64,000 nt of DNA, taken from positions 531,231 through 595,230 of the forward strand of contig CBDBNP010000007.1 in the NCBI GenBank assembly GCA_965207865.1. The letters are read 5' to 3'. Positions 5,275 to 35,889 of the stretch are shown here, in pieces. Source of the DNA: Dehalococcoidia bacterium (lineage in GTDB: Bacteria > Chloroflexota > Dehalococcoidia > Lucifugimonadales > UBA3495). Numbering within the stretch: position 1 is the stretch's first letter; every line of letters begins with the position of its first letter. The notes below the pieces were generated by a model, which did not search any database, was not told the origin of the DNA, and saw only the letters and a program-made list of their open reading frames with translations. The position numbers were made by a program, and so were the translations under genes.

Positions 5275-6459
5275 ATGGGACAGGAAATTAATGGCAACGG
5301 TCTCGGAGCCGAGGATCGAAAGGAAGGCTATACGGAGGAACCTGAAAGAGATTTTCGGAAGAGGACTACCCTGGCACGTTCCTTCGCCTCCGTCAGCGCC
5401 CTGAACGATGTCAGCAGGTCCCTCGCACGCTCCTTCCCAGCCGTCAACATTGCAGGTGACCTTCAGCGATCCCTTGCTCCTTCGTTCCCAGCCGTCAACA
5501 TTGCAGTTGAGCTTCAGCGATCCTTTGCTCCTTCGTTCCCAGCTGTCAACATTGCAGCTGACGTTCGGCGGGCCCTCGCACCTTCGTTCCCAGCCGTCAA
5601 CATTGCAGTTGAGCTTCAGCGATCCTTTGCTCCTTCGTTCCCAGCTGTCAACATTGCAGCTGACGTTCGGCGGGCCCTCGCACTTTCGTTCCCAGCCGTT
5701 AACATTGCAGCTGGCTTTCGGCGATCCTTTGCTCCTTCGTTCCCAGCCGTCAACATTGCAGCTGACCTTCGGCGGTCCTTTGCACCTTCGTTCCCAGCCG
5801 TCAACATATTGGGAGACCTGAACCGTCGCCTGGCGCTCTCATTTCAATTCGAAGAGACTGGATGGTTCCCGCACAGTACTTTTCCCGCACAGATCTTCGA
5901 CGAAGTGCAGGATTATGCAGAGATTGACGAAGAGATACTAACTTATTACCGCAAGAATTGGATTGAAATTTGCAATGAAATCGAAAGCGAGCTTGCTGGA
6001 TATTTGATAGATGAGAAAGAGAAGAACGTATTAAGGCAAGCATTACGTGCACACAAAAATGGCCTGCATGATCTTGTGAGCCCTACATTGTTTACTTTGA
6101 TTGAGAGGGCAGTTCGTGTACATTTGAACGAGAACAAGATCGGCAACCTCTCAGTCAGAAATGAGATGACCAATAGGTTATCTGAGATACCCATTTCTGC
6201 GTTTCCAGATCGTTTAGTAGGCTACGTGGGTTATAGTCTATTCTCTCATCATTTATACCAGAGCATCCGGACGGACGATGACCGTGACTATTTCTCTAAG
6301 ATATCTATGCCAAACCGGCATGCAGTTATTCATGGATTATTTGATTACGAGGCTGAGAAAAGCAGTTTGAATTCCATCTTTATCGCTTGCTACGTATTTC
6401 AAATAATTACTTTGATTAAGATCCAAGAGATCAAAAGAGTTCTTGATAACAATACATAG
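5275..6459 (+). CDS. hypothetical protein: N-terminal 17-aa tandem repeats plus C-terminal HEPN-like (Rx4H) domain
   Basis: 394-aa ORF in an AT-richer islet. Residues 36-188 are nine copies of SFPAVNIAxxLxRSxAP. The C-terminal helical domain has LRQALRAHKNGLHDLVSPTLFTLIERAVRVHL and PNRHAVIHG (R-H-x3-H at 6316-6333), resembling the HEPN R[NHD]xxxH signature. Confidence 0.65.
   Translation: MGQEINGNGLGAEDRKEGYTEEPERDFRKRTTLARSFASVSALNDVSRSLARSFPAVNIAGDLQRSLAPSFPAVNIAVELQRSFAPSFPAVNIAADVRRALAPSFPAVNIAVELQRSFAPSFPAVNIAADVRRALALSFPAVNIAAGFRRSFAPSFPAVNIAADLRRSFAPSFPAVNILGDLNRRLALSFQFEETGWFPHSTFPAQIFDEVQDYAEIDEEILTYYRKNWIEICNEIESELAGYLIDEKEKNVLRQALRAHKNGLHDLVSPTLFTLIERAVRVHLNENKIGNLSVRNEMTNRLSEIPISAFPDRLVGYVGYSLFSHHLYQSIRTDDDRDYFSKISMPNRHAVIHGLFDYEAEKSSLNSIFIACYVFQIITLIKIQEIKRVLDNNT
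5380..5838 (+). repeat. 51-bp (17-codon) tandem repeat array, about 9 copies, inside the CDS
   Basis: Direct reading shows TTCCCAGCCGTCAACATTGCAG recurring every 51 bp. A 102-bp two-unit block (about 5506-5607) is repeated almost identically at about 5608-5709. Confidence 0.9.
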
Positions 6460-6661
6460 TAACGCAACTTGCTTAGATTCCCAATGGTTCTCAGGTATTG
6501 ATCTCTGCCTCAAATCCATCCGGCCACTTAGACATCCCTTTGCATACCGAAAGAGTTAACTCTCACAACGCAACACCGAACGTTGAAATGGCGGCCAATT
6601 ATTCCACCGTGTACAATACCCTCACCACCCAAGCACCCCAACCCCGACAGGAGGCCAACCT

Positions 6662-7537
6662 ATGACCACCCTTGGCTCCGGCCACTACACCTACACCCTC
6701 GAGGAAAACTGGGCCAAGCTGCCCGAGGGCGAGACTTTTGCCATGGTCTCGGCCATCGCCACCGACTCCCAGGACCTCGTCTACGCCTTCCAGCGCAAGG
6801 AGCCGCCCGTCCTCATCTTCGACCGCGACGGCAACCTCCAGGACTCTTGGGGCAACGGCTCCTTCCTCTTCGCCCATGGCTTTTACATCGAGGACGACGT
6901 CGTCTACGTGACCGACCGTGACGCCTCCACCTGCCTCGTCTACACCCTCGACGGCAAACCGGTCCAGATGCTGGGCCGTCACGGCCGCCACTCCGACACC
7001 GGCTGCGAGGTTGCAGGCGACCTCGTGCCCCGCGCCGCCGGGCCCTTCAACTACCCCGCCGAGCTGGTCCCGTCGCCCTCCGGCGAGCTCTACGTCGCTG
7101 ACGGCTACCGCAACTCCCGCGTTCACCGCTTCACCGCCGAGGGCGAGCTGATCCAGTCCTGGGGCGAGCCCGGCAAGTCCGAGGCCAACCACTTCCACCT
7201 GCCCCACAGCCTGATCATTGACGGCGACCGCATCATCGTGTGCGACCGCGAGAACCACCGCATTCAGCTCTTCACCCTCAACGGCGAGTTCATCGAGTTC
7301 TGGAACGACATTCAGCGTCCCATGGACATTTCCCGAGACCCCGAGGGCAACTTCCTCGTCAGCGAAGGCACGGTCGGCGACAGCTCCGCGCGCATCAGCA
7401 TCCTCGATCCCCAGGGCAGCGTCCTAGCCCGCTTCGACTGCCGCGGCTCCGGCCATGGCAGCTGGATTGACTCTCGCGGCGACATCTACCTCGCCGGCGT
7501 CCCCGACGCCATCGACAAGTACGTCCGCGAGGGCTAG
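6662..7537 (+). CDS. NHL-repeat beta-propeller protein (peptidyl-alpha-hydroxyglycine lyase-like)
   Basis: 291 aa with an AGGAGG RBS. NHL-type blades: GELYVADGYRNSRVHRF, IIVCDRENHRIQLF, FLVSEG. Confidence 0.8.
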   Translation: MTTLGSGHYTYTLEENWAKLPEGETFAMVSAIATDSQDLVYAFQRKEPPVLIFDRDGNLQDSWGNGSFLFAHGFYIEDDVVYVTDRDASTCLVYTLDGKPVQMLGRHGRHSDTGCEVAGDLVPRAAGPFNYPAELVPSPSGELYVADGYRNSRVHRFTAEGELIQSWGEPGKSEANHFHLPHSLIIDGDRIIVCDRENHRIQLFTLNGEFIEFWNDIQRPMDISRDPEGNFLVSEGTVGDSSARISILDPQGSVLARFDCRGSGHGSWIDSRGDIYLAGVPDAIDKYVREG

Positions 7538-7691
7538 TAGCACTCATAGGCGCACTGGCCGTCTCTGTGGAAGACAGGGAGGCCAGTGAATTCCTGCGCG
7601 CCATCCGTTCGTCATCAGCCCGTCCTGAGCAAGCTCAAGGGTCTGAGTCTGTCGAAGTCCGGAGGGTGTATCCAACCGAACGGAGACGGCT

Positions 7692-7895
7692 ATGGCAACT
7701 GAAAAGAGCCAGGCAGAACTGAACCTCGAAACAGTCATGGCAACCATGGGCGACAGCGAGTGGCGCAACGTCCGCATCCTAGAGCACTACGCGGAGTCGC
7801 ACATCTCCTACTCACTCATTGGGGTCAAGATCGACGACGGCAAGACCTATTACTACCAGGCCGAGACGGGCCGCTTCATCATGCTGAACATCTAG
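7692..7895 (+). CDS. hypothetical small protein
   Basis: 67-aa ORF with a GGAGA RBS, followed by a strong hairpin terminator. No family recognised. Confidence 0.4.
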   Translation: MATEKSQAELNLETVMATMGDSEWRNVRILEHYAESHISYSLIGVKIDDGKTYYYQAETGRFIMLNI

Positions 7896-7954
7896 CCGCC
7901 CACGCGTCCAATCCTCTCTCAGGAGGGGGGCAGGGTGGGCGCGATTTCCCGGAC

Positions 7955-7990
7955 AAAAAGTAGGGGCGCACGGCTGTGCGCCCCTTTTTC
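7955..7990. terminator. bidirectional intrinsic terminator / REP-like hairpin
   Basis: AAAAAGTA-GGGGCGCAC-GGCT-GTGCGCCCC-TTTTTC lies between convergent genes (7692..7895 on + and the MFS gene on -). Confidence 0.8.
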
Positions 7991-8013
7991 GTTGTCATTC
8001 CCACCGATTCTAC

Positions 8014-9537
8014 TCAGTCCGCCGCGGCACCCGCGCGCGCCTGTTGGCCGCCTTCACTCGTCGGCGCCGTCGGCGGCTTGTAGGGTCGGTGGAACGCCGC
8101 GATGATGGCGCCGATGGTCATGATTCCGACCACCGCCATCGCCGAGACCTGGAACCCCTCAAGGTGCAGCCGCTGCGACTCCGCCGGCAGCATAAGTCCG
8201 ATAGTCGCCGGCACGATCATGGCCACGATGAACGACGAAATCGTCGCGCCCGTCGCGTGTCCCATGTCCCGTGTCGTCTCCAGCATCCCGGAGGCGAAGC
8301 CCCGGTTCTCCGTCGGCAATGTGCTCATCACCGTCGCGTTGTTCACCGTGTTGAAGATGTTGGTGCCCACCGAGATCGGGAACAGCAGGAGCGGCAGCAA
8401 CCAGATGGAAACCGTCCCCGCGAACAGCGCCAGCAGCACGAACCCCGACGCGATGGACAGCATGCACGCCGTCCGCAGCAGCCGTGGGTTGAACTTGTCG
8501 TGGATGAACCCCGCTATGGCCGGTAGCCAGATGCCGAAGGACTGGTGCGGCAGCAGCACGTAGGTAACGAATATTGGCGACATGCCCAATCCCTCTTCGA
8601 TCATGATCGGCACCAGGATCATGGTCGCCATCATCGAGAGGTGGAACATCACGTTGGATATGATCGCCAGCGTGAAGTATTTCTGTCTGAAGTGCTGGAA
8701 CTCGACGAAGGGGTGCGACACTCGCCGTTCAACGAATATGAACACCACCAGCAGCGCGATGGTCAGCCCGTGCATCGGCAGGTGGTAGGTCAGCGCGTCC
8801 GGCGACGTGTACGACTCCTCGCCGCCGTGGATGTGGCTGCCCGACAGGATGAACACCGCCGACACCGCCACCAGCAGGATCGCCCCCAGGTAGTCGATGG
8901 GGTTCTCCTTGTCGACGATGGACTCGTTGTTTCGCCGCACCACTGGCATGCACGTCTTGATGACGATCAGGCCGATGGGCAGCATGGTCAGGAACACCAA
9001 CCGCCAGCCGGCGAAGCTTTCCCAGTTGGCCCACTGCAGCAGGACCCCAAAGAACGCAACGCCGATGAAGGTCCCGACGCGCGAGCCGGTGATGGGGAAG
9101 GCGTAGGCCCGGCCCCGCTCGCTGGGCGGGAATGCGAAGGCCAGCATGGCGTTCCCGTTGCCGTGTATCAGTCCGGCGCCGAACCCTTGCAGTCCTCTCA
9201 GCACAGTGACCTGTGTCAGGTCCTGGGCCGCCACGATTCCCACCGCGCCCACAGTGATGATGATCGTGCCGATGAAGAACACTCGTGGATGGCCGAACCG
9301 GTCGCCCAGCCTCGCGCCGAGGAACACGGTGCTGCCCAGCACCAGCAGGTTGGCGATGACGATCCAGGCCGCCTCGTCGACGCTGTAGCCGAAGTCGCGA
9401 GCGATGCTCGGCAGCGCCAGCGTCACCGGCAGGCTGGAGAGCTGCACCAGCAACTGCCCGCCGGTCATGGCGATCAGCACCTGGCGGCGCTCCACCGAGT
9501 TCACGACTTCCCTGTAGTTCTGAATAAAACCGGGCAT
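8014..9537 (-). CDS. MFS transporter (DHA2/EmrB-like, about 14 TM segments)
   Basis: 507 aa and highly hydrophobic. MFS motif GARLGDRFGHPRV after TM2. Confidence 0.85.
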   Translation of the reverse strand: MPGFIQNYREVVNSVERRQVLIAMTGGQLLVQLSSLPVTLALPSIARDFGYSVDEAAWIVIANLLVLGSTVFLGARLGDRFGHPRVFFIGTIIITVGAVGIVAAQDLTQVTVLRGLQGFGAGLIHGNGNAMLAFAFPPSERGRAYAFPITGSRVGTFIGVAFFGVLLQWANWESFAGWRLVFLTMLPIGLIVIKTCMPVVRRNNESIVDKENPIDYLGAILLVAVSAVFILSGSHIHGGEESYTSPDALTYHLPMHGLTIALLVVFIFVERRVSHPFVEFQHFRQKYFTLAIISNVMFHLSMMATMILVPIMIEEGLGMSPIFVTYVLLPHQSFGIWLPAIAGFIHDKFNPRLLRTACMLSIASGFVLLALFAGTVSIWLLPLLLFPISVGTNIFNTVNNATVMSTLPTENRGFASGMLETTRDMGHATGATISSFIVAMIVPATIGLMLPAESQRLHLEGFQVSAMAVVGIMTIGAIIAAFHRPYKPPTAPTSEGGQQARAGAAAD

Positions 9538-11814: not shown

Positions 11815-13042
11815 CAGGGTCATTCGATTATTGATCGAAAATGGGGATGGGGTGTCTTGGGGATGATGATGAGGGAGTAGTAAGGTAGGGGGAGTGAGTG
11901 TGAGAGGGGTGTGTGGAATGGGCAATGAAAGGGAGAATATCGGGGGCCTGTCGTTACTGGAGGTCATGGGGAGATTGCCGGACCCTCGGAGCGGGCATGG
12001 CCGGCGCCATCCTCTGGGGGCGGTTCTTGGGTTGGCGGTGTGCGCCATGCTGTGTGGCGCCCGCAGCCTGTATGCCATCAGCCAGTGGGGCCGGGATCAG
12101 GGCCGGGAGGTATCGGAGGCACTGGGCTTCACCCGGAGTCGTACTCCCTGCGTATCCACGTTGCATCAGGTATTCAGCCGGCTGGACCGGGAGGCCTTCG
12201 AGCTGCTGTTGGGTCAATGGCTAAAGGAGCGGGGACTGGAGGCTGGGGAGGCACTGGCCATAGACGGAAAGAGATTGCGTGGAATTCACGGAGAGCAATT
12301 GCCTGGGGTCCACTTGGTGGCGGCCTATGCCCACCGGTCGGGTATCGTGGTGGGTCAACAGGCAGTGGCGCACAAGAGGAATGAACTGGAGGCGGTACAC
12401 CGGCTCTTGGATCGGTTGGACCTGCAAGGCCAGGTGGTGACGGGAGACGCCCAGTTCACCCAGCGGAAGGTGTGCCGCAGTATCGTGGCAAAAGGGGGCA
12501 CTACCTCCTCTCGGTAAAGGACAATCAACCCACCTTGAAACAGGACATTGCCGACCTCTGGGAGGAGGCTATGGCACCGCAGGCAGAGCAGGTAGGCCGG
12601 CACGGGGACCGGGTGGAGGTGCGGCGCATCTGGGTGTCGGATGAACTGGCAGGCTACAGCGACTGGCCCCACCTGGCCCAGGTGTGTCGTGTGGAACGTA
12701 TCGTCCACCACAAAGGCAAGACCCGCCGGGAACTCGCGTATGCCGTAACCAGCCTCGGTCCCAATGAGGCTGACCCTGCCAGGCTGCTGCAACTGTGGCG
12801 GGGTCATTGGGGGATCGAAAACCGGGTGTTCTGGGTACGGGATGTGACCATGGATGAGGACCGCTGCCAGGTAAGATCGGGTTCAGCCCCTCAAGTGATG
12901 GCCGGACTGCGCAATCTGGTCATCAGTCTCTTGAGAATGGAAAAGGTGCCCAACATCGCCGCCGCACTCCGTCGCTGCGCCACCAGACCCTCCTATCCCT
13001 TGTCTCTCGTCGGCGCCCCTACCCAATAATCGAAAGACCCTG
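11815..13042 (+). mobile_element. ISAs1-family insertion sequence (1228 bp) with IRs and a 10-bp target-site duplication
   Basis: IRL is CAGGGTCATTCGATTATTG (11815-11833). The IRR reverse complement is CAGGGTCTTTCGATTATTG (13024-13042), an 18/19 match. It is flanked by direct repeats TCCCGAAGCT at 11805-11814 and 13043-13052. Confidence 0.85.
11894..13029 (+). pseudogene. ISAs1-family (H-repeat-associated) DDE transposase, frame broken at an A4G5 run
   Basis: ORFs 11894..12517 and 12472..13029 together resemble one ISAs1 transposase (LPDPR, AIDGK, ...GHWGIENRVFWVRDVTMDED). The frames join as IVAKGG/HYLLSVKDNQ only with a -1 shift at GCAAAAGGGGGCAC (about 12487-12500). Confidence 0.8.
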
Positions 13043-13135: not shown

Positions 13136-14182
13136 ATGGTCAATGCGCCGGTCCGGCTGACCGAACTCTCCCACTGCGCCGGTTGAGCCGCCAAGCTCAG
13201 CCAGCAGGACCTCGTGCAGGTCCTAAGCAAGCTTCCCCAGGTGGAGCACCCAGACCTGCTGGTCGGGTCCTCGACGGGCGACGACGCCGCCGTGTACCGC
13301 CTCGATGACAGGCTCGGGCTGGTGCTGACAGTGGACTTTTTCACGCCAATCACCGACGACCCATACGAGTTCGGCTCGGTGGCCGCAGCCAACTCCCTCA
13401 GCGACGTCTACGCCATGGGCGGGCGTCCGCTGGTGGCCCTCAACGTGGTCGGCTTCCCCGCCGCCCTGGCCGGCGAGATGCTGGGCGATGTGCTGCGCGG
13501 CGGCTACGACAAGGCCGCCGAGGCCAACTGCCTCATCGTCGGCGGCCACACCGTCGACGACAACGAGCCCAAGTACGGCCTGTCTGTCGTGGGACTCGTC
13601 GAACCCGGTCGCCATGTGACCAACGCCGGCGCCCGGCCCGGCGACGTCCTGGTGCTCACCAAGCCCCTCGGCACGGGCATCGTCACCACCGGCTGCAAGG
13701 CAGGTGTGGCGCCGCCCGGCTCGGTGGAGGTTGCCGTCGAGACCATGGCCACGCTGAACCGGGCCGCCTCGGAGGCCATGATGGAGGTGGGCGTCAACGC
13801 CTGCACCGACGTCACCGGCTTCGGTCTGATGGGGCATCTGACCGGCATGCTGCGGGCCAGCGGAGTCGGCGCCGAGATCCGGGCCTCGTCCGCTCCGGTC
13901 CTGCCCGGCGTGGACGAGTTGCTGTCCCAGGGAGTCGCTCCCGGCGGCACCCACCGCAACGAGGCGGGGGTAGCCGATTATGTCGACTGGGACGATGCGG
14001 TCAGCTCCGACCAGCGCCTGATCCTGTGCGACGCCCAGACCTCGGGCGGGCTGCTGATCTCCGTGCCCGAGGATCGGCTGTCGCAGCTTCTGAGCGCCCT
14101 GGAGTCCAGGAGCGTAGAGACCCGTTCCATCGTGGGCCACATTAGCGATGGCGCGGCTGGGATTGCCAGCGTGATTCAGTGA
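13136..14182 (+). CDS. selD: selenide, water dikinase (selenophosphate synthetase) with in-frame TGA = selenocysteine at 13184-13186
   Basis: The ORF track starts at 13214. The in-frame ATG at 13136 has an AGGAG RBS and reads MVNAPVRLTELSHCAG-TGA-AAKLSQQDL. The rest is clearly SelD/AIR-synthase-like (DDAAVY, SDVYAMGG, VGGHTV). Confidence 0.85.
13206..13224 (+). promoter_or_regulatory. candidate bacterial SECIS hairpin downstream of the selD UGA
   Basis: AGGACC-UCGUGCA-GGUCCU, a 6-bp stem and a 7-nt loop containing GU. It starts 19 nt after the UGA. Confidence 0.35.
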
Positions 14183-14197
14183 GCATAGGGCGGTAAA

Positions 14198-14845
14198 ATG
14201 CTGTCCAAACTATTCCCCAATGTGAGGTGGGGCTTGAAGCGACCCGACCGAGTAAAGAAGGCACCCGACCAGGGCTACGGCGAACGCGTGCCGCCGGGCC
14301 AGTTCGTCACCACCAAGTTCCCGGTGCTCACCTACGGCCCCGAGCCCAAGATCGACATCAACGCCTGGCAGTTCCGGGTGTTCGGCCTGGTCGAGAAAGA
14401 AATCACCCTCGATTGGAAGGCGTTCACCGAACTGCCCTGGCAGGTCCTCGAGGCCGACTTCCACTGCGTAACCCAGTGGAGCGCCCTGGACCAGACCTGG
14501 GAGGGTGTGGCGGTGTCTGACCTGCTGGAACTCTCGGGAATATCGACGGAAAGCAAGTACCTGATGGCACACTGCTTCGGCGGCTATTCCACCAACCTCC
14601 CGCTGGAAATCGCCCTGGACGAGGGATTCCTGGCCCACAAGCAGGGCGGCGAGCCCATCGGCAAGAGCCACGGCTGGCCCCTGCGCCTGATCGTGCCCAG
14701 CCTCTACGGTTGGAAGAGCGCGAAGTGGGTCAACGGCATCGAGCTGATGGCCGAGGACGCCCCAGGATTCTGGGAGCAGCGCGGCTACCACAACAACGGC
14801 GACCCCTGGAAGGAAGAGCGCTTCTGGCCCGAGTTGATGCGTTAG
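14198..14845 (+). CDS. sulfite-oxidase-fold molybdopterin-dependent oxidoreductase (small YedY/SUOX-like)
   Basis: 215 aa, starting 15 nt after the selD stop. FHCVTQWS (Mo-ligand Cys context), GGEPIGKSHGWPLRLIVP and YGWKSAKWV are typical of this family. Confidence 0.8.
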   Translation: MLSKLFPNVRWGLKRPDRVKKAPDQGYGERVPPGQFVTTKFPVLTYGPEPKIDINAWQFRVFGLVEKEITLDWKAFTELPWQVLEADFHCVTQWSALDQTWEGVAVSDLLELSGISTESKYLMAHCFGGYSTNLPLEIALDEGFLAHKQGGEPIGKSHGWPLRLIVPSLYGWKSAKWVNGIELMAEDAPGFWEQRGYHNNGDPWKEERFWPELMR

Positions 14846-16811: not shown

Positions 16812-18710
16812 ATGCCTAAAGTCTTGGGCATAGACCTGGGAACTACCAACTCGGTAGCAGCCGTAATCGAGGCGGGCGAACCGGGCGTGGTCGAGAACGC
16901 CGAGGGCGCACGCCTGACCCCGTCGGTGGTGGCGCTGAATACCCGCACCGGTGAGCGGTACGTGGGACAGGTGGCGAAGCGACAGGCGGTCACCAATCCT
17001 GAGAATACCCTGTTTTCCGTCAAGCGGTTGATGGGACGCAGGTTTGACGATGCCGAGGTGCAGAACGCCGCTACCAAGCTGCCCTACGAGGTCGTAAGGT
17101 CTGACAACGGCGACGCCCACGTCAAGATGGGCGACCAGAGCTACGCGCCGCCACAGATATCGTCCTTTGTGCTTGCGAAGATCAAGCAGGACGCGGAAGC
17201 AAAGCTGGGAGAGCGCATCACCCAGGCAGTGATCACTGTGCCGGCTTACTTCAACGATTCTCAGCGCCAGGCCACCAAGGACGCCGGCACCATAGCCGGG
17301 CTGGACGTGCTGCGAATCATCAACGAGCCGACAGCCTCGTCCTTGGCCTACGGACTCGACAAGACCCGGACGGATGCCAACGTTGCCGTATTTGACCTCG
17401 GTGGTGGCACCTTCGACATCACAATCCTCCAGATGGGAGACGGAGTGTTCGAGGTCAAGTCCACCAATGGCGATACGTTCCTTGGCGGCGACGACTTCGA
17501 CCAGGCCATCCTTGAGTGGCTGATCGCGGAGTTCCGCCGCGAAACCGGCATTGACCTGGCCAACGACCGCATGGCCCTGCAGAGGCTGCGGGACGCCGCT
17601 GAGCGGGCCAAGGTGGAGCTGTCCAGCGTTGTCGAGACGGAGATCAACCTGCCCTTCATTACCGCCGATGCCAGCGGGCCGCAGCACCTGGTCAAGTCGC
17701 TCACCCGCGGGCGATTCGAACAACTGGTAAGGGGTCTCATCGACCGCACGGCGGGACCGTGCCAGCGGGCCATCGCCGATTCCGGCGTTTCCACCAGCCA
17801 GATTGACGAGGTCATCATGGTGGGCGGCATGTCCCGCATGCCGGCGGTGCAGGAGAAGGTCAAGGAGATCTTCGGCAAGGAACCCAACCGCAACGTCAAC
17901 CCGGACGAGGCGGTGGCCCTGGGCGCCGCCATACAGGCCGGCGTTCTGGCGGGTGAGGTTGGCGACATCGTCCTCCTGGATGTGACTCCCCTGACGCTAG
18001 GGCTGGAGACACTTGGTGGCGTGATGACCACCCTGATCCCAAGGAACACGACGATCCCGACCAAGAAGAACGAGATGTTCACCACCGCCGCCGATAGCCA
18101 GCCGGCCGTGGACATCCATGTGCTGCAGGGCGAACGTAGTATGGCCGGCGACAACAAGTCCATCGGCATGTTCAAGCTGGACGGTATCGTCCCGGCGCCC
18201 CGGGGGATTCCCCAGATCGAAGTCACTTTCGACATCGACGCCAACGGCATCCTGAGCGTGTCGGCCCAGGACAAGGGCACCGGGAAGGCACAGAGCATCG
18301 TGATCCAGTCCGGGTCGGGCATGGACAAGTCCGACATTGACCGGATGGTGGACGAGGCCCGGCAGTATGAGGCAGAGGACCAACAGCGCCGCCAGGAGGT
18401 CGACACCCGCAACCAGGCCGACTCCATGGTCTACCAGGCCGAGAAGCTGCTGAACGACAATGCCGACAAGGTGCCGCAGGAGCTGCGCGCCGAGGTCCAG
18501 ACCAAGATCGACGCTCTGCGCGCCGCGTCGGCCTCCGGGAGCGTCGCCGAGATGCAGACGGCTATAAACGAGCTGAATGAGGTCCTTCAAAGGCTGGGCG
18601 AGGTGGTGTACAGCCAAGCCGCGGCGCCGGGCCCTGGCGGACCCGAGGGCCCAACGGACGGCCCGTCCGACGACGCCGGGACCGTGGAGGGCGAGTTCCG
18701 GGAGGTATAG
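16812..18710 (+). CDS. dnaK: molecular chaperone DnaK (Hsp70)
   Basis: 632 aa with an AAGGAG RBS. Contains [17 protein letters not shown] and the rest of the canonical Hsp70 sequence. Confidence 0.97.
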
Positions 18711-32616: not shown

Positions 32617-32822
32617 GGGAAACGGAGCCTTGCGGGAAACTACAGTCGTTTTCGGGGCCTCCCTAGCATAACATCCGAACGCGCAATCCGCGATTGCGGT
32701 CTGATTCGGTAGGCAAACAAAGAACATCCCTTCGTTGAACAATAGTCCGTGGCCGCGTACAATTCCTGAAAATGGATAGACATATAGCCCTTCCATGACA
32801 AACATGTACACAGGGGTGCGAC

Positions 32823-33056
32823 GTGACGCAAGACAGCCAGGTAATCCTCTACACCCATCCCGATTGCGCCTTTTCGGCGGCGGCCAAGATGGACTACCGC
32901 AAGCGCAAGGTGGCCTACGAAGACGTGGACCTGTCCAAGCAGGAAGACAGGATCCCCGAATTGCTCGGTCTCACCAACGGTGAGCGGGTGACTCCGGTGA
33001 TCGTTGAAAACGGCACGGTAACCATCGGATTCAAGGGCGGTACTTGAGAGTTCTAG
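32823..33056 (+). CDS. glutaredoxin/NrdH-like small redoxin; possible selenoprotein ending Sec-Glu-Phe-stop
   Basis: The ORF track ends at TGA 33045-47, giving 74 aa (VILYTHPDCAFSAAAK...TPVIVENGTVTIGFKGGT). The DNA continues TGA GAG TTC TAG. The CxxC motif is replaced by CAFS. The coordinates include the optional read-through; the conventional end is 33047. Confidence 0.55.
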
Positions 33057-33060
33057 CCCC

Positions 33061-33074
33061 GGGCCAGTTGGCCC
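33061..33074 (+). promoter_or_regulatory. candidate SECIS apical hairpin after the redoxin UGA
   Basis: GGGCC-AGUU-GGCCC begins 14 nt after the UGA and has GU in the loop. UAG/CUA could extend the stem. Confidence 0.3.
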
Positions 33075-33122: not shown

Positions 33123-34037
33123 GTAACTATCTCAAAATTGGAGTTGTGTGAAAGGGAGATCAAACCGGGGGGTTGGTTAAGATAGGGGAAAGTTGTGTGG
33201 TGGTGAATTATGGGGAAGCGGGAGACTCTGCCAACGATATGGGAAATACCGGATGATCTGTGGGAGCGAATCGAGCCGGTGATTTTGCAGTTGGACCCAC
33301 CCAAGGCGAAGGGGCGCAAACGGGTGAACCAGCGCAGGATGCTGGAAGGTATCATCTTCCGGATGCGTAGCTCCTGCCAATGGAACCGGTTGCCCAAGGA
33401 TCTGGGGGATGACAGCACCATCCACCGAACTTTCCAGCGTTGGGTAGAGCGTGGGGTGCTGGAGGGTGTCTGGGCTGTCCTGATAGAGGGATGCCGGGAG
33501 TTGGACGGCGTAGACTGGGAATGGCAGTCAGCCGACTGCTCCATGGGGAAGGCGCGTTTTGGGGGGGCGCTATTGGACGCAATCCCACGGACCGGGGCAA
33601 GGCTGGGAGCAAGAAAAGCGTCCTGGTAGACGGGGCAGGCGGGCCACTGAGCGTGGTGGTGGCCGGAGCCAATGTCCACGATACGAAACTCCTCGGGCCG
33701 ACGCTGGAGAGCATAGTGGTGGACCGGACGGAAGGCGTCCAGAACCTGTGCTTGGACAAGGGGTATGACAATCCCACCGGCCACCGGACCGTCTCCGAGG
33801 CCGGATACCAGCCGCGGATTCGGCGTATTGGCGAGGAGAAATTGGACCAATGGGGTGAGAGGACCCACCCGGCCCGGCGGTGGGTGGTGGAACGCACCCT
33901 GGCCTGGCTGTCCAAGTGCCGGGCAATCTTGGTTCGCTACGACAAGAAAGTATCCAATTACCTTGGCCTGCTCCAACTGGCATGTGCCCTTATCTGGTAC
34001 CGCCGTCAATGGAGCCTGGATAATTTGAGATAGTTAC
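33123..34037 (+). mobile_element. IS5-family (IS427/IS1031-like) insertion sequence, 915 bp, with a TAA target duplication
   Basis: IRL is GTAACTATCTCAAA (33123-36). IRR is TTTGAGATAGTTAC (34024-37), a perfect 14-bp inverted repeat. TAA flanks both sides (33120-22 and 34038-40). Confidence 0.85.
33210..34033 (+). CDS. IS5-family DDE transposase, two frames joined by a -1 shift at a T3G7 run
   Basis: ORF 33210..33629 (LPKDLGDDSTIHRTFQRW) and ORF 33440..34033 (NPTDRGKAGSKKSVLVD...DKGYD...RWVVERTLAWL) join as GKARFGG/AIGRNPTDRG at TTTGGGGGGG (about 33556-33566). Confidence 0.75.
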
Positions 34038-34150
34038 TAAAGAGTGCAAGTGCGTTTTATCAGAAGTTTTAAATTGATGACAGTTGGCCGTTGTACACAT
34101 ATTAGAACAAATGTTAGTCTTGGCCTATTCCAAAGGGAGGCAAGTGCAGG

Positions 34151-35242
34151 GTGATGAAAAAGGACAAGATGACAACTGACAAGAAAGCTGCGCTGGATAT
34201 CGCCCTCAGCAGCATCGAGAAGGACCACGGCAGGGGCGCGGTCATGCGCTTGGGCGAACTGAGCAACTCGCTCACCACCGAATCCATCTCAACGGGCTCC
34301 CTGGCCGTGGATATCGCCCTGGGCACCGGGGGAATACCCCGGGGACGGGTCACCGAGGTCTTTGGCGCAGAATCGGCCGGGAAGTCCACCCTGGCGATTC
34401 ACCTGATGTCCGAGACCCAGAAGGCGGGCGGGGTCGCCGCCTACATCGACGTGGAGCACGCCCTCGACCCGACATACGCGGCCAGCTGCGGTCTGGACCT
34501 CAACGAGCTGCTCATATCCCAGCCCGACAGCGCCGAGCAGGCCCTGGATATTACCGAACAGCTGGTACGCAGCGGCGCCATTGATGCCATAGTCATCGAC
34601 AGCGTCGCGGCCCTGGTGCCGCAGGCGGAAATCGAAGGCGACATGGGCGACACCCACGTCGGCCTGCAGGCCAGGCTCATGTCTCAGGCCTTGCGCAAGC
34701 TCACCGGCACCATCCACAAGTCCAAGACCGCCGTCGTGTTCATCAACCAGCTCCGTGAAAAAGTGGGCGTAACCTACGGCAGCCCGGAGGTAACGCCCGG
34801 TGGCCGCGCACTGAAATTCTACAGCTCGGTCCGCATAGACCTGCGCCGCATCGAGTCCATCAAGCAGGGCTCGGAGATAATCGGCAACCGGGTCCGGGCC
34901 CGTGTGGTCAAGAATAAAGTCGCCGCTCCCTTCAGGGTCGCGGAATTCGACATCATGTTCAACCAGGGCATCAGCAAGATGGGAGACCTCCTGGAAATCG
35001 GCACCGCCAAGGGCATCATAAAGAAATCCGGTGCCTTTTACTCCTACGGCGAAACCCGCCTGGGGCAGGGCCGAGAAAACTCCAAGGAGTTCCTGCAGCA
35101 GCACCCGGAAATTGCGGCCTCCGTGGAAAACCGTATCAGGGCGGGCAGCGATATCAACGCACCCCTGCCCGAAGAAGACGACGCCCTGGAAATTGGGGGA
35201 GCTCCCTCCCTCAACGGCTCTGAACCCTCCTCCGGCGACTAG
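34151..35242 (+). CDS. recA: recombinase RecA
   Basis: Canonical RecA sequence ([11 protein letters not shown] Walker [18 protein letters not shown]). The GGAGG RBS ends 10 nt upstream of the GTG start. ATG 34154 is an alternative start. Confidence 0.97.
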
Positions 35243-35251
35243 AAGGACAGA

Positions 35252-35288
35252 AGGGGCTGCCGTTTCCAGTGGCAGCCCCTTCATTTTG
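35252..35288 (+). terminator. hairpin (attenuator/terminator) between recA and recX
   Basis: AGGGGCTGCC-GTTTCCAGT-GGCAGCCCCT followed by TCATTTTGC. Confidence 0.55.
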
Positions 35289-35307
35289 CGCTGTGAGGAA
35301 TTCGTCT

Positions 35308-35889
35308 ATGAGCCGTGACACACACTTCGACCACGCCAACCGCTCTTTCCAGGCCGTCCCCTCGCTAGAGCACGCAATGTCAACGGTCCAGGCCGTCCCT
35401 TCATTAAAAAAGGAATCCGACCGTGCTCGCGGCGCGGCACTGCGACTATTGGCTCTGCGGCCACGCACGGTGTTGGAGATTCAAGAGCGGCTGGGGCAAC
35501 GCTTCGGTAAGGATGCCGTTGATGAAACCGTAGCGCGCCTGCTGAGCGAGGGACTGCTGGACGATGCGGACTATGCCAACCAGTGGCGCCAGAGCAGGGA
35601 GCGCCACAAGCCGCGAAGCCGGGGAATGATCGCCAGGGAGCTCAAAAGTAAAGGCGTTGCCGACGAATTCATTGACGACGCCCTTGAGGGATACGACTCC
35701 TCAGACGCGGCCCGGCGGTCGGCCCATCGCTACGCCTCCAGGCAATCTGGCGCCAGTCGCATTGCATTCGACCGCAGAGTCGGCGCGTTTCTTGCCCGGC
35801 GAGGATTCGAACCCTCAGTTATCCGGCAAGTCCTGCAGGAACTCAGAGAGGAACTGGAAATCGTCAACCCTTCGGACAACAGAGTATAA
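35308..35889 (+). CDS. recX: recombination regulator RecX
   Basis: The ORF track starts at GTG 35269, inside the hairpin. ATG 35308 has a GAGGAA RBS. RecX-like three-helix repeats (RGAALRLLALRPRTVLEIQERL..., DDADYANQW) immediately follow recA. Confidence 0.8.
   Translation: MSRDTHFDHANRSFQAVPSLEHAMSTVQAVPSLKKESDRARGAALRLLALRPRTVLEIQERLGQRFGKDAVDETVARLLSEGLLDDADYANQWRQSRERHKPRSRGMIARELKSKGVADEFIDDALEGYDSSDAARRSAHRYASRQSGASRIAFDRRVGAFLARRGFEPSVIRQVLQELREELEIVNPSDNRV

What the first reader, a model, noticed from the sequence alone, without database searches (positions are those of the whole stretch)
32823..33074. Glutaredoxin-like gene may end in Sec-X-X-stop (TGA GAG TTC TAG), with CxxS instead of CxxC
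The 74-aa NrdH/Grx-like ORF has only one Cys in the active-site position (CAFS) and ends ...GFKGGT at TGA 33045-47. Exactly two sense codons later comes TAG (33054-56). A 5-bp stem with an AGUU loop starts 14 nt after the TGA. If the TGA is decoded as Sec, the protein ends GGT-U-E-F. A Cys14/Sec75 selenenylsulfide pair would then replace the missing second Cys. I recall a curated family of small glutaredoxin-like (seleno)proteins named for a C-terminal U-x-x-stop, but I cannot verify that here. The Sec-type selD 20 kb away makes Sec decoding available in this genome.
Basis: partly seen in the sequence, partly recalled or inferred. Interest (0 to 1): 0.7.

Follow-up and report, generated by a model that had tools for sequence, protein, structure and literature searches.

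The report
Known glutaredoxin-like selenoprotein, Sec-x-x-stop

Summary
The ORF runs from GTG 32823 to ACT-TGA(33045-47)-GAG-TTC-TAG(33054-56), and a 5-bp hairpin with an AGUU loop lies at 33061-33074.

- The protein scores above the curated cut-off of NCBIfam NF041211, "UXX-star (seleno)protein family 2" (108-116 bits, cut-off 100).
- In the window plus 80 related genomes (Dehalococcoidia/Chloroflexota/SAR202), 81 of 81 orthologs have TGA at this codon, then Glu/Asp-Phe, then a stop.
- The two codons after the TGA vary only at third positions. The final stop switches among TAG, TAA and TGA.
- A hairpin that fits the bacterial SECIS consensus follows in 77 of 81 sequences, against 1.2-1.6% of background positions. 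It has 52 distinct stems and compensatory changes.
- More distant relatives carry Cys-x-x-stop, with the Cys aligned on the TGA.
- A selD gene 19.6 kb upstream also has an in-frame TGA at its catalytic position.

A Cys15-Sec75 selenenylsulfide redox mechanism is plausible but only inferred.

Novelty: already known (Haft & Tolstoy 2025; listed in a 2026 review).

Side observations:
- recA/recX lie next to the gene in 79 of 80 genomes.
- In this window a 915-bp IS5-family element sits between the gene and recA.

The parts
32735..32763 (+). Promoter-like site (TTGAAC-17-TACAAT), about 60 nt upstream of the start codon
   Evidence: Consensus scan only. This is weak evidence. An AGGGG Shine-Dalgarno-like run lies 6-7 nt before the GTG.
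32823..33056 (+). Full coding sequence of the selenoprotein: 77 codons (Met1...Thr74-Sec75-Glu76-Phe77) plus the TAG stop
   Evidence: Sequence. NF041211 scores 108-116 bits against a cut-off of 100. Pfam Glutaredoxin PF00462 scores 29.2 bits against 22.9. 81 of 81 orthologs share the same architecture.
32865..32876 (+). Active-site motif Cys15-Ala-Phe-Ser18 (CxxS)
   Evidence: C15 and S18 are invariant in 44 family members. C15 is also invariant across distant relatives.
33045..33047 (+). TGA decoded as selenocysteine (residue 75)
   Evidence: The codon is TGA in 81 of 81 orthologs, while the true stop varies among TAG, TAA and TGA. Cys occupies this aligned column in distant relatives. Eight validated genes in the window have no other in-frame TGA apart from selD's Sec site.
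33048..33056 (+). Glu76-Phe77 codons and the true stop, TAG
   Evidence: The codons are GAG, GAA, GAC or GAT, then TTC or TTT. Only third positions vary. G4, A5, T7, T8 and T10 are invariant in 80 sequences.
33061..33074 (+). SECIS hairpin GGGCC-AGUU-GGCCC, lying entirely in the 3' untranslated region
   Evidence: MFE is -10.7 kcal/mol. The loop starts 18 nt after the UGA, with G then U at loop positions 2-3. It meets all four constraints of the bSECIS model quoted in PMC13188914. It is conserved in 77 of 81 orthologs against 1.2-1.6% background. There are 52 distinct stems, and 45-47 double-change cells against 20 in shuffles.
13136..14182 (+). selD (selenide, water dikinase), itself carrying an in-frame TGA (Sec) at 13184-13186. 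This is the only part of the Sec machinery present in the window.
   Evidence: TIGR00476 scores 384.8 bits against a cut-off of 125, and NF002098 scores 346 against 299. Translation. A downstream hairpin folds with z = -2.4.

Best explanation
The gene at 32823-33056 encodes a 77-residue selenoprotein of the curated 'UXX-star (seleno)protein family 2'.

Decoding. The ribosome reaches UGA 33045-47. The hairpin at 33061-74 has loop AGUU, starting 18 nt after the UGA. It recruits SelB carrying Sec-tRNA(Sec), and selenocysteine is inserted instead of terminating. Two more residues (Glu, Phe) are added and translation stops at UAG 33054-56. Only two codons follow the Sec, so the bacterial SECIS lies in the 3' UTR and not in coding sequence.

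Protein. It is a minimal glutaredoxin/NrdH-type thioredoxin fold (beta-alpha-beta-alpha-beta-beta) with no C-terminal helix. It has a single active-site Cys15 (C-A-F-S), a Thr57-Pro58 motif and a Gly-Gly turn. These are followed by a flexible tail, Thr-Sec-Glu-Phe.

Inferred chemistry. The tail swings onto the active site so that Cys15 and Sec75 cycle between a thiol/selenol pair and a selenenylsulfide. This would make the protein a small redox carrier or reductase.

Shown here: family membership, the recoding signature, SECIS conservation, the fold, and a Sec-type selD in the window.
Inferred: actual Sec insertion, the Cys15-Sec75 bond, and the physiological partner.
For: - Family: NF041211 scores 107.9-116 bits (cut-off 100) and NF041212 scores 92-98 bits (cut-off 66). 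A 78%-identical homolog carries the NCBI name 'UXX-star (seleno)protein family 2' (MEO2140777.1).
- Recoding: 81 of 81 orthologs have TGA-[E/D]-F-stop. The variation after the TGA is synonymous-type. The final stop varies (TAG 57, TAA 13, TGA 7 among the first 77 scored).
- All 120 listed database homologs are called as ending ...GFKGG[T/N/S/Y], which is at the TGA.
- Sec/Cys pairs: nine relatives end C-x-x with the Cys aligned on the TGA. Locus L081 is the TGA-bearing counterpart (61% identity) of the Cys form P0142.
- SECIS: the hairpin is present in 77 of 81 against 1.2-1.6% background. 83% of cells are paired against 74% in shuffles, and 47 double-change cells against 20.6 (0 of 500 shuffles reach this). 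The bSECIS model criteria are met. No T-tract follows, and no terminator is called there.
- TGA is an ordinary stop elsewhere in the window.
- selD carries Sec.
- Fold: the AF2 model has pLDDT 76. Strands are 7-11, 32-36, 59-62 and 65-68. Helices are 16-28 and 41-51. The tail at 72-74 has low confidence. The best Foldseek matches are NrdH 1h75, BC3987 3zij and Grx2, with TM 0.71-0.74.
Against: - There is no direct evidence of Sec insertion (no proteomics or 75Se data).
- selA, selB and tRNA-Sec are not in the 64-kb window. ARAGORN found no tRNA at all, and no SelA/SelB match appeared among the ORFs scanned.
- The hairpin on its own is not thermodynamically exceptional.
- RNAalifold gave no consensus structure on the mixed-register alignment.
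- The Cys15-Sec75 bond was not tested.
- CxxC-type relatives also appear to carry the C-terminal Sec/Cys. The review PMC13188914 suggests instead that Sec in UXX-star proteins may be a metal ligand or interact with unknown substrates.
Confidence: 0.88

Rival explanations
1. The TGA is the real stop. The protein is a 74-residue monothiol glutaredoxin. The conserved sequence after it (GAR/GAY TTY stop plus hairpin) is a non-coding regulatory or terminator element.
For: Gene callers end all 120 database homologs at this TGA. The hairpin is small and not unusually stable in a single sequence. Rfam has no match.
Against: A non-coding element would not vary only at every third base while keeping Glu/Asp-Phe. 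An ordinary stop would drift among TAA, TAG and TGA, as the downstream stop does in the same genomes, yet 81 of 81 are TGA. Cys-x-x-stop relatives align Cys on the TGA. No T-tract follows the hairpin and no terminator is called. The invariant loop GU fits SelB recognition, not termination.
Confidence: 0.04
2. Sec75 is inserted as proposed but acts as a metal or metalloid ligand, or attacks a small-molecule substrate. In that case it is not a partner for Cys15 in a selenenylsulfide redox couple.
For: [quoted passage not shown] Relatives with a full CxxC site also seem to carry the C-terminal Sec/Cys, so the tail residue is not merely a resolving partner. Cys has not replaced Sec in any of 81 species of this clade, which hints at chemistry that Cys performs poorly.
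Against: No metal-handling genes sit next to it. The neighbours are a TPR protein, a PlsY-like protein, a CoA-transferase and recA/recX. The fold and the invariant Cys15, Thr-Pro and Gly-Gly are classic thiol-disulfide oxidoreductase features.
Confidence: 0.25
3. TGA is read through by general reassignment (for example to Trp or Gly), or by near-cognate suppression, and not by the Sec machinery.
For: None specific. It would also explain conservation of the two following codons.
Against: About 3,300 codons of eight validated genes contain no in-frame TGA except selD's known Sec position. TGA ends selD and an MFS transporter gene. The conserved hairpin at SECIS spacing and the Sec/Cys pairing are not expected under reassignment.
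Confidence: 0.02

Closest known systems
UXX-star (seleno)protein family 2 (NCBIfam NF041211). Attributed to Haft & Tolstoy 2025, mSystems 10:e0141724, in the review PMC13188914.
   Same: The score is above the curated cut-off over the full profile. The size, Grx-like fold, G-x-G-U motif and U-x-x-stop ending all match. A 78%-identical protein already carries this name in GenBank.
   Different: Nothing of substance; this is a member. The window's copy is separated from recA by an IS element, unlike 80 of 80 related genomes.
UXX-star selenoprotein families 1 and 3, and the HUGP/GUXX-star fusion (NF041114, NF047338, NF045501), within the subfamily model NF041212
   Same: They share the Grx-like scaffold and the C-terminal Sec-x-x-stop. 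The window protein matches all of these models.
   Different: Scores are below their cut-offs (69 against 72, 71 against 97, 56 against 325). According to the review table, family 1 has a second Sec in the active site (UxxT), whereas this protein has Cys (CAFS).
NrdH-redoxin and classical glutaredoxins (1h75, 4fiw, 3zij, Grx2)
   Same: They share the thioredoxin-fold core, the position of the N-terminal nucleophilic Cys and the cis-Pro region. TM is 0.71-0.74.
   Different: The motif is CxxS, not CxxC. There is no helix after strand 4. The C-terminal Sec tail is extra. Scores are far below the family cut-offs: TIGR02194 gives 29 against 85.75 and TIGR02196 gives 36 against 88.55.
Mammalian thioredoxin reductase C-terminal -Gly-Cys-Sec-Gly tail, and its expression in E. 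coli with a bacterial SECIS placed after the stop codon (Arner et al. 1999). This comparison rests on my own knowledge and was not checked here.
   Same: Sec sits on a flexible C-terminal tail a few residues from the end. A bacterial-type SECIS functions downstream of the true stop codon.
   Different: The protein is unrelated (a flavoenzyme). In TrxR the partner Cys is adjacent in the tail, whereas here the only Cys is in the Grx active site. Here the 3'-UTR SECIS is natural, not engineered.

Membership tests
UXX-star (seleno)protein family 2 (NF041211) | HMM score at or above the curated cut-off (100 bits) over the whole profile | tested here: met
   107.9 bits for the 74-aa ORF. With the tail as C-E-F the score is 116 bits, covering profile 1-71 of 71.
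UXX-star (seleno)protein family 2 (NF041211) | Sec (TGA) or Cys followed by exactly two residues and a stop | tested here: met
   TGA GAG TTC TAG at 33045-33056. The same architecture is seen in 81 of 81 orthologs.
UXX-star (seleno)protein family 2 (NF041211) | Glutaredoxin-like thioredoxin fold | tested here: met
   PF00462 scores 29.2 bits against 22.9. The AF2 model has pLDDT 76 with beta-alpha-beta-alpha-beta-beta topology. Foldseek top hits are NrdH and Grx.
Bacterial selenoprotein gene (general) | bSECIS downstream of the UGA: 3-9 nt loop, stem of at least 4 bp, G in loop position 1 or 2, 16-37 nt from the UGA, MFE at most -7.5 kcal/mol | tested here: met
   Loop AGUU, 5-bp stem, 18-nt spacing, -10.7 kcal/mol. 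Criteria as quoted from PMC13188914. Conserved in 77 of 81 with covariation.
Bacterial selenoprotein gene (general) | Cys-containing homologs with Cys aligned to the UGA | tested here: met
   P0142, P0144, P0153, P0171, P0174, P0157, P0163, P0204 and P0242. None occurs within the close clade, where 0 of 81 have Cys.
Bacterial selenoprotein gene (general) | Sec-decoding machinery (selA, selB, selC, selD) in the genome | tested here: inconclusive
   selD is present and is itself Sec-containing. There is no tRNA-Sec in the 64-kb window, and no selA or selB among the ORFs scanned. The rest of the genome could not be read.
Bacterial selenoprotein gene (general) | Selenium actually incorporated into the protein | not testable with these tools
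   Needs 75Se labelling or mass spectrometry.
NrdH-redoxin / dithiol glutaredoxin | CxxC active site and a score above the family cut-off | tested here: not met
   The active site is C-A-F-S. TIGR02194 scores 29.3 against 85.75, TIGR02196 scores 36.4 against 88.55 and TIGR02181 scores 28.7 against 90.
Class II monothiol glutaredoxin (CGFS type) | CGFS motif, C-terminal helices and an Fe-S/GSH-binding signature | tested here: not met
   The CAFS motif only resembles CGFS. No monothiol-Grx model appears in the NCBIfam hits. The model ends after strand 4 with no helix. Fe-S binding was not tested.

The most novel reading that the evidence does not exclude
The selenoprotein may be functionally tied to the RecA/RecX DNA-repair module. 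Its gene sits directly upstream of recA, on the same strand and about 170-200 nt away, in 79 of 80 Dehalococcoidia/SAR202-type genomes. This holds although the protein itself has diverged to 62% identity. Sec has never been replaced by Cys in this clade. It could be a selenium-dependent redox partner of the DNA-damage response.
Probability: 0.08. Interest if true: 0.55.

Novelty: already known. Interest (0 to 1): 0.25.

Why it matters
The result confirms that a reader working from raw sequence can spot a genuine recoding event. Most gene callers miss it: all 120 database homologs are truncated at the TGA and mostly unnamed or called 'glutaredoxin'.

Biologically, it adds clean comparative evidence for a family whose function is untested.
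- Sec is strictly conserved across 81 species.
- The bacterial SECIS lies wholly in the 3' UTR, at 10-14 nt from the UGA.
- The gene has a conserved position next to recA.

None of this changes current understanding, because the family is already curated and published.

Tried and rejected
- Rfam scan of the whole window: no hits.
- ARAGORN: no tRNA or tRNA-Sec in the window.
- Single-sequence folding z-scores were not significant for the longer stretches, so I relied on comparative evidence.
- RNAalifold on the model-based alignment predicted no pairs. Loops of 3, 4 and 5 nt put the 3' arms in different registers. I used register-aware hairpin finding and a background control instead.
- The primary paper (Haft & Tolstoy 2025) is not held under its PMC id or DOI. 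Family provenance therefore rests on NCBIfam and on the review PMC13188914.
Only residues 1-74 could be modelled, and the Cys15-Sec75 distance could not be measured.
- Locus search with the distant alignment A3 failed because no conserved stretch was found. The Cys form P0142 gave only two loci.
- ORF 16812-18710 (632 aa) was considered as a possible selB, but it is dnaK.
- A terminator reading of the hairpin was rejected: no T-tract and no call.
- An operon with recA is considered unlikely. The spacer after the SECIS is not conserved. A conserved promoter-like block with a GAAC-N4-GTTA box lies just upstream of recA.

Full report
**1. What is in the sequence**

One search confirms the description base for base. 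An ORF starts at GTG 32823, preceded by an AGGGG Shine-Dalgarno-like run. It reads MTQDSQVILYTHPDCAFSAAAKMDY...TIGFKGGT and reaches TGA at 33045-47. GAG TTC TAG (33048-56) follows. After four C residues comes GGGCC-AGTT-GGCCC (33061-74).

Taken alone, none of this is beyond chance. A second stop three codons on is common. The hairpin is not unusually stable for 61% GC DNA, with z = -0.03, -0.77 and -2.56 depending on the stretch folded.

**2. Family assignment**

- NCBIfam model NF041211.1, 'UXX-star (seleno)protein family 2', scores 107.9 bits on the 74-aa ORF.
- With the tail modelled as Cys-Glu-Phe it scores 116 bits and covers all 71 profile positions (cut-off 100).
- The broader NF041212 'Uxx-star family glutaredoxin-like (seleno)protein' scores 92-98 bits (cut-off 66).
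- Pfam sees only a Glutaredoxin domain.
- NrdH, YruB and Grx3 models score far below their cut-offs.

A 78%-identical homolog already carries that name in GenBank (MEO2140777.1). [quoted passage not shown] I could not read that primary paper.

**3. Comparative test of recoding**

I fetched 80 loci from species-representative genomes. All are Dehalococcoidia, Chloroflexota or SAR202 MAGs, with protein identity of 62-99%. With the window, 81 of 81 have TGA at this codon, then Glu or Asp, then Phe, then a stop.

- The two sense codons appear as GAG, GAA, GAC or GAT and as TTC or TTT.
- First and second codon positions are invariant in 80 distinct sequences. Third positions vary. That is the signature of translated sequence.
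- The final stop drifts (TAG 57, TAA 13, TGA 7 among the first 77 scored). The upstream TGA never changes. This serves as an internal control for what an ordinary stop does in these genomes.
- All 120 listed database proteins are called as ending ...GFKGG[T/N/S/Y], meaning they are truncated at the TGA.
- TGA is not a general sense codon here. Eight validated genes (about 3,300 codons) have no in-frame TGA except selD's Sec position, and TGA terminates two of them.

**4. Sec/Cys pairs**

A full HMMER scan of 1.84 billion representatives found only 124 relatives. Nine of the more distant ones (30-43% identity) end in Cys-x-x-stop or a similar tail. Examples are ...GVGCAF...GFGCSF and ...GFGCVE. 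In each the Cys aligns exactly on the TGA column. All of them match the UXX-star models.

Locus L081 (a Lake Baikal Dehalococcoidia MAG) is the TGA-bearing counterpart of the Cys form P0142 at 61% identity. It reads ...GLG-TGA-GCC-TTC-TAG followed by AAGGCC-GUU-GGCCUU. L082 (Zixibacteria) reads ...GGG-TGA-GGA-ATT-TAG.

**5. SECIS**

Register-aware hairpin finding shows a 5-8 bp stem whose loop begins 17-20 nt after the UGA in 75 of 81 sequences. The stem starts 10-14 nt after the UGA in 76 of 81. The loops are AGUU (28), GGUC (13), GGUU (9), AGUUA (6), GUU, GUG and similar, so the GU is essentially invariant. There are 52 distinct stem sequences.

- On the MAFFT and model-based alignments, 82-83% of cells pair, against 74% in shuffles.
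- There are 45-47 double-change cells against about 20 in shuffles (0 of 500 shuffles reach this). Slid registers score lower.
- A strict definition was used for the background test: stem of at least 5 bp with at least 3 G-C pairs, a 3-6 nt loop with GU at loop positions 1-2 or 2-3, and the loop 16-21 nt from the codon. It is met by 77 of 81 orthologs. Only 1.2% of all positions and 1.6% of all TGA triplets in the same loci meet it.
- The window's element meets every constraint of the bSECIS consensus quoted in PMC13188914. It has a 4-nt loop, a 5-bp stem, G at loop position 2 followed by U, 18-nt spacing and -10.7 kcal/mol.
- No T-tract follows and no terminator is called.
- The hairpin starts after the true stop, so this is a natural bacterial SECIS lying wholly in the 3' UTR. 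The same review describes bacterial SECIS elements as residing in coding regions.

**6. Sec machinery**

selD lies at 13136-14182, 19.6 kb upstream, and scores 384.8 bits against a cut-off of 125. It has an in-frame TGA at 13184-86 in SHCAG-U-AAKL, followed by its own hairpin. A Sec-containing SelD can only be made if the genome decodes Sec. selA, selB and tRNA-Sec are not in the window, and the rest of the genome could not be examined.

**7. The protein and how it probably works**

AlphaFold2 on residues 1-74 with 44 homologs gives pLDDT 76. Strands are 7-11, 32-36, 59-62 and 65-68. Helices are 16-28 and 41-51. Residues 72-74 form a low-confidence tail, and there is no C-terminal helix. Foldseek's best PDB matches are NrdH (1h75), BC3987 (3zij) and Grx2, at TM 0.71-0.74. 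No close solved structure exists.

Within the family, C15, S18, T57-P58, G69 and G72 are invariant, and G73 and T74 are at least 90% conserved.

From general knowledge of glutaredoxins, the Gly-Gly turn after strand 4 abuts the active-site Cys. A flexible Thr-Sec-Glu-Phe tail starting there could reach Cys15. I therefore favour a Cys15/Sec75 thiol-selenol to selenenylsulfide cycle. This step is inferred, not shown.

Two points count against a simple 'Sec replaces the second Cys' story. Superfamily members that end at the same G-x-G position include CxxC (14) as well as CxxS (22) and CxxT (11) forms. The review also raises metal binding as a possible role.

**8. Context**

The gene order TPR protein (-) | selenoprotein (+) | recA (+) | recX (+) is conserved. 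recA follows in 79 of 80 loci, recX in 74 and the TPR gene in 62. The spacer after the SECIS is not conserved. A conserved block just upstream of recA contains GAACAAATGTTA (34105-16), the only GAAC-N4-GTT[A/C] match in the window. recA therefore probably has its own promoter, possibly LexA-controlled, and a shared operon is unlikely. The two more distant UXX-star loci are not near recA.

In this window alone, a 915-bp IS5-family element separates the selenoprotein gene from recA. It spans 33123-34037 and has terminal inverted repeats GTAACTATCTCAAA... The TAA duplication lies at 33120-22 and 34038-40. Its transposase is split over two overlapping ORFs. It lies 48 nt past the hairpin and upstream of the recA promoter block, so it leaves both intact.

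**9. Verdict**

This is an ordinary member of a curated, published selenoprotein family, so novelty is 'already known' and interest is low. Its biochemical function, the reason Sec is never replaced by Cys in this clade, and any link to recA remain open.

Noticed in passing
window 33123-34037 (target duplication TAA at 33120-22 and 34038-40): A 915-bp IS5-family insertion sequence lies between the selenoprotein gene and recA. It has terminal inverted repeats (GTAACTATCTCAAA...). Its transposase is split over two overlapping ORFs (33210-33629 and 33440-34033), which match profile positions 3-101 and 115-257 of NF033580. It is absent from all 80 related loci, including one at 94-96% nucleotide identity. 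It leaves the SECIS hairpin and the recA upstream block intact.
   Followed up: yes
window 34151-35889, and loci L001-L080 at about 6400-8300: recA, then recX, follows the selenoprotein gene on the same strand, about 170-200 nt downstream. recA is there in 79 of 80 related genomes and recX in 74 of 80. A TPR-protein gene lies divergently upstream in 62 of 80. The two more distant UXX-star loci (L081, L082) are not near recA.
   Followed up: partly
window 34105-34116: GAACAAATGTTA lies 35 nt upstream of the recA start, inside a block conserved across relatives. It resembles the Gram-positive-type LexA (Cheo) box GAAC-N4-GTTC; that comparison is from my own knowledge. It is the only such match in the window, but about 2.4 are expected by chance, so only its position and conservation are suggestive.
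   Followed up: partly
window 13136-14182 (TGA at 13184-86; hairpin about 13204-13225): selD is itself a selenoprotein gene (SHCAG-U-AAKL). A hairpin 3' of the TGA folds with z = -2.4. This makes it a second recoded TGA in the same window.
   Followed up: partly
window 11894-12517: An ISAs1-family transposase fragment lies about 600 nt upstream of selD. It scores 121.7 bits and matches profile positions 1-161 of 314, so it is probably truncated.
   Followed up: no
L081 513-755; L082 4001-4210: Other UXX-star lineages show the same TGA-x-x-stop plus hairpin layout...GLG-TGA-GCC-TTC-TAG in a Baikal Dehalococcoidia MAG, and ...GGG-TGA-GGA-ATT-TAG in a Zixibacteria MAG. L081 is the Sec counterpart of the Cys-ending protein P0142 at 61% identity.
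   Followed up: partly
proteins P0121-P0242 (representative search): Many distant Grx-like proteins end abruptly at the same G-x-G position. Their active sites are CxxS (22), CxxC (14) or CxxT (11). They are probably further uncalled Sec-x-x-stop proteins, but their DNA was not examined.
   Followed up: no
window 14198-14845: The ORF directly after selD has only a partial match to the molybdopterin sulfite-oxidase/MsrP catalytic domain (58 bits, far below cut-offs). Its function is unclear.
   Followed up: no
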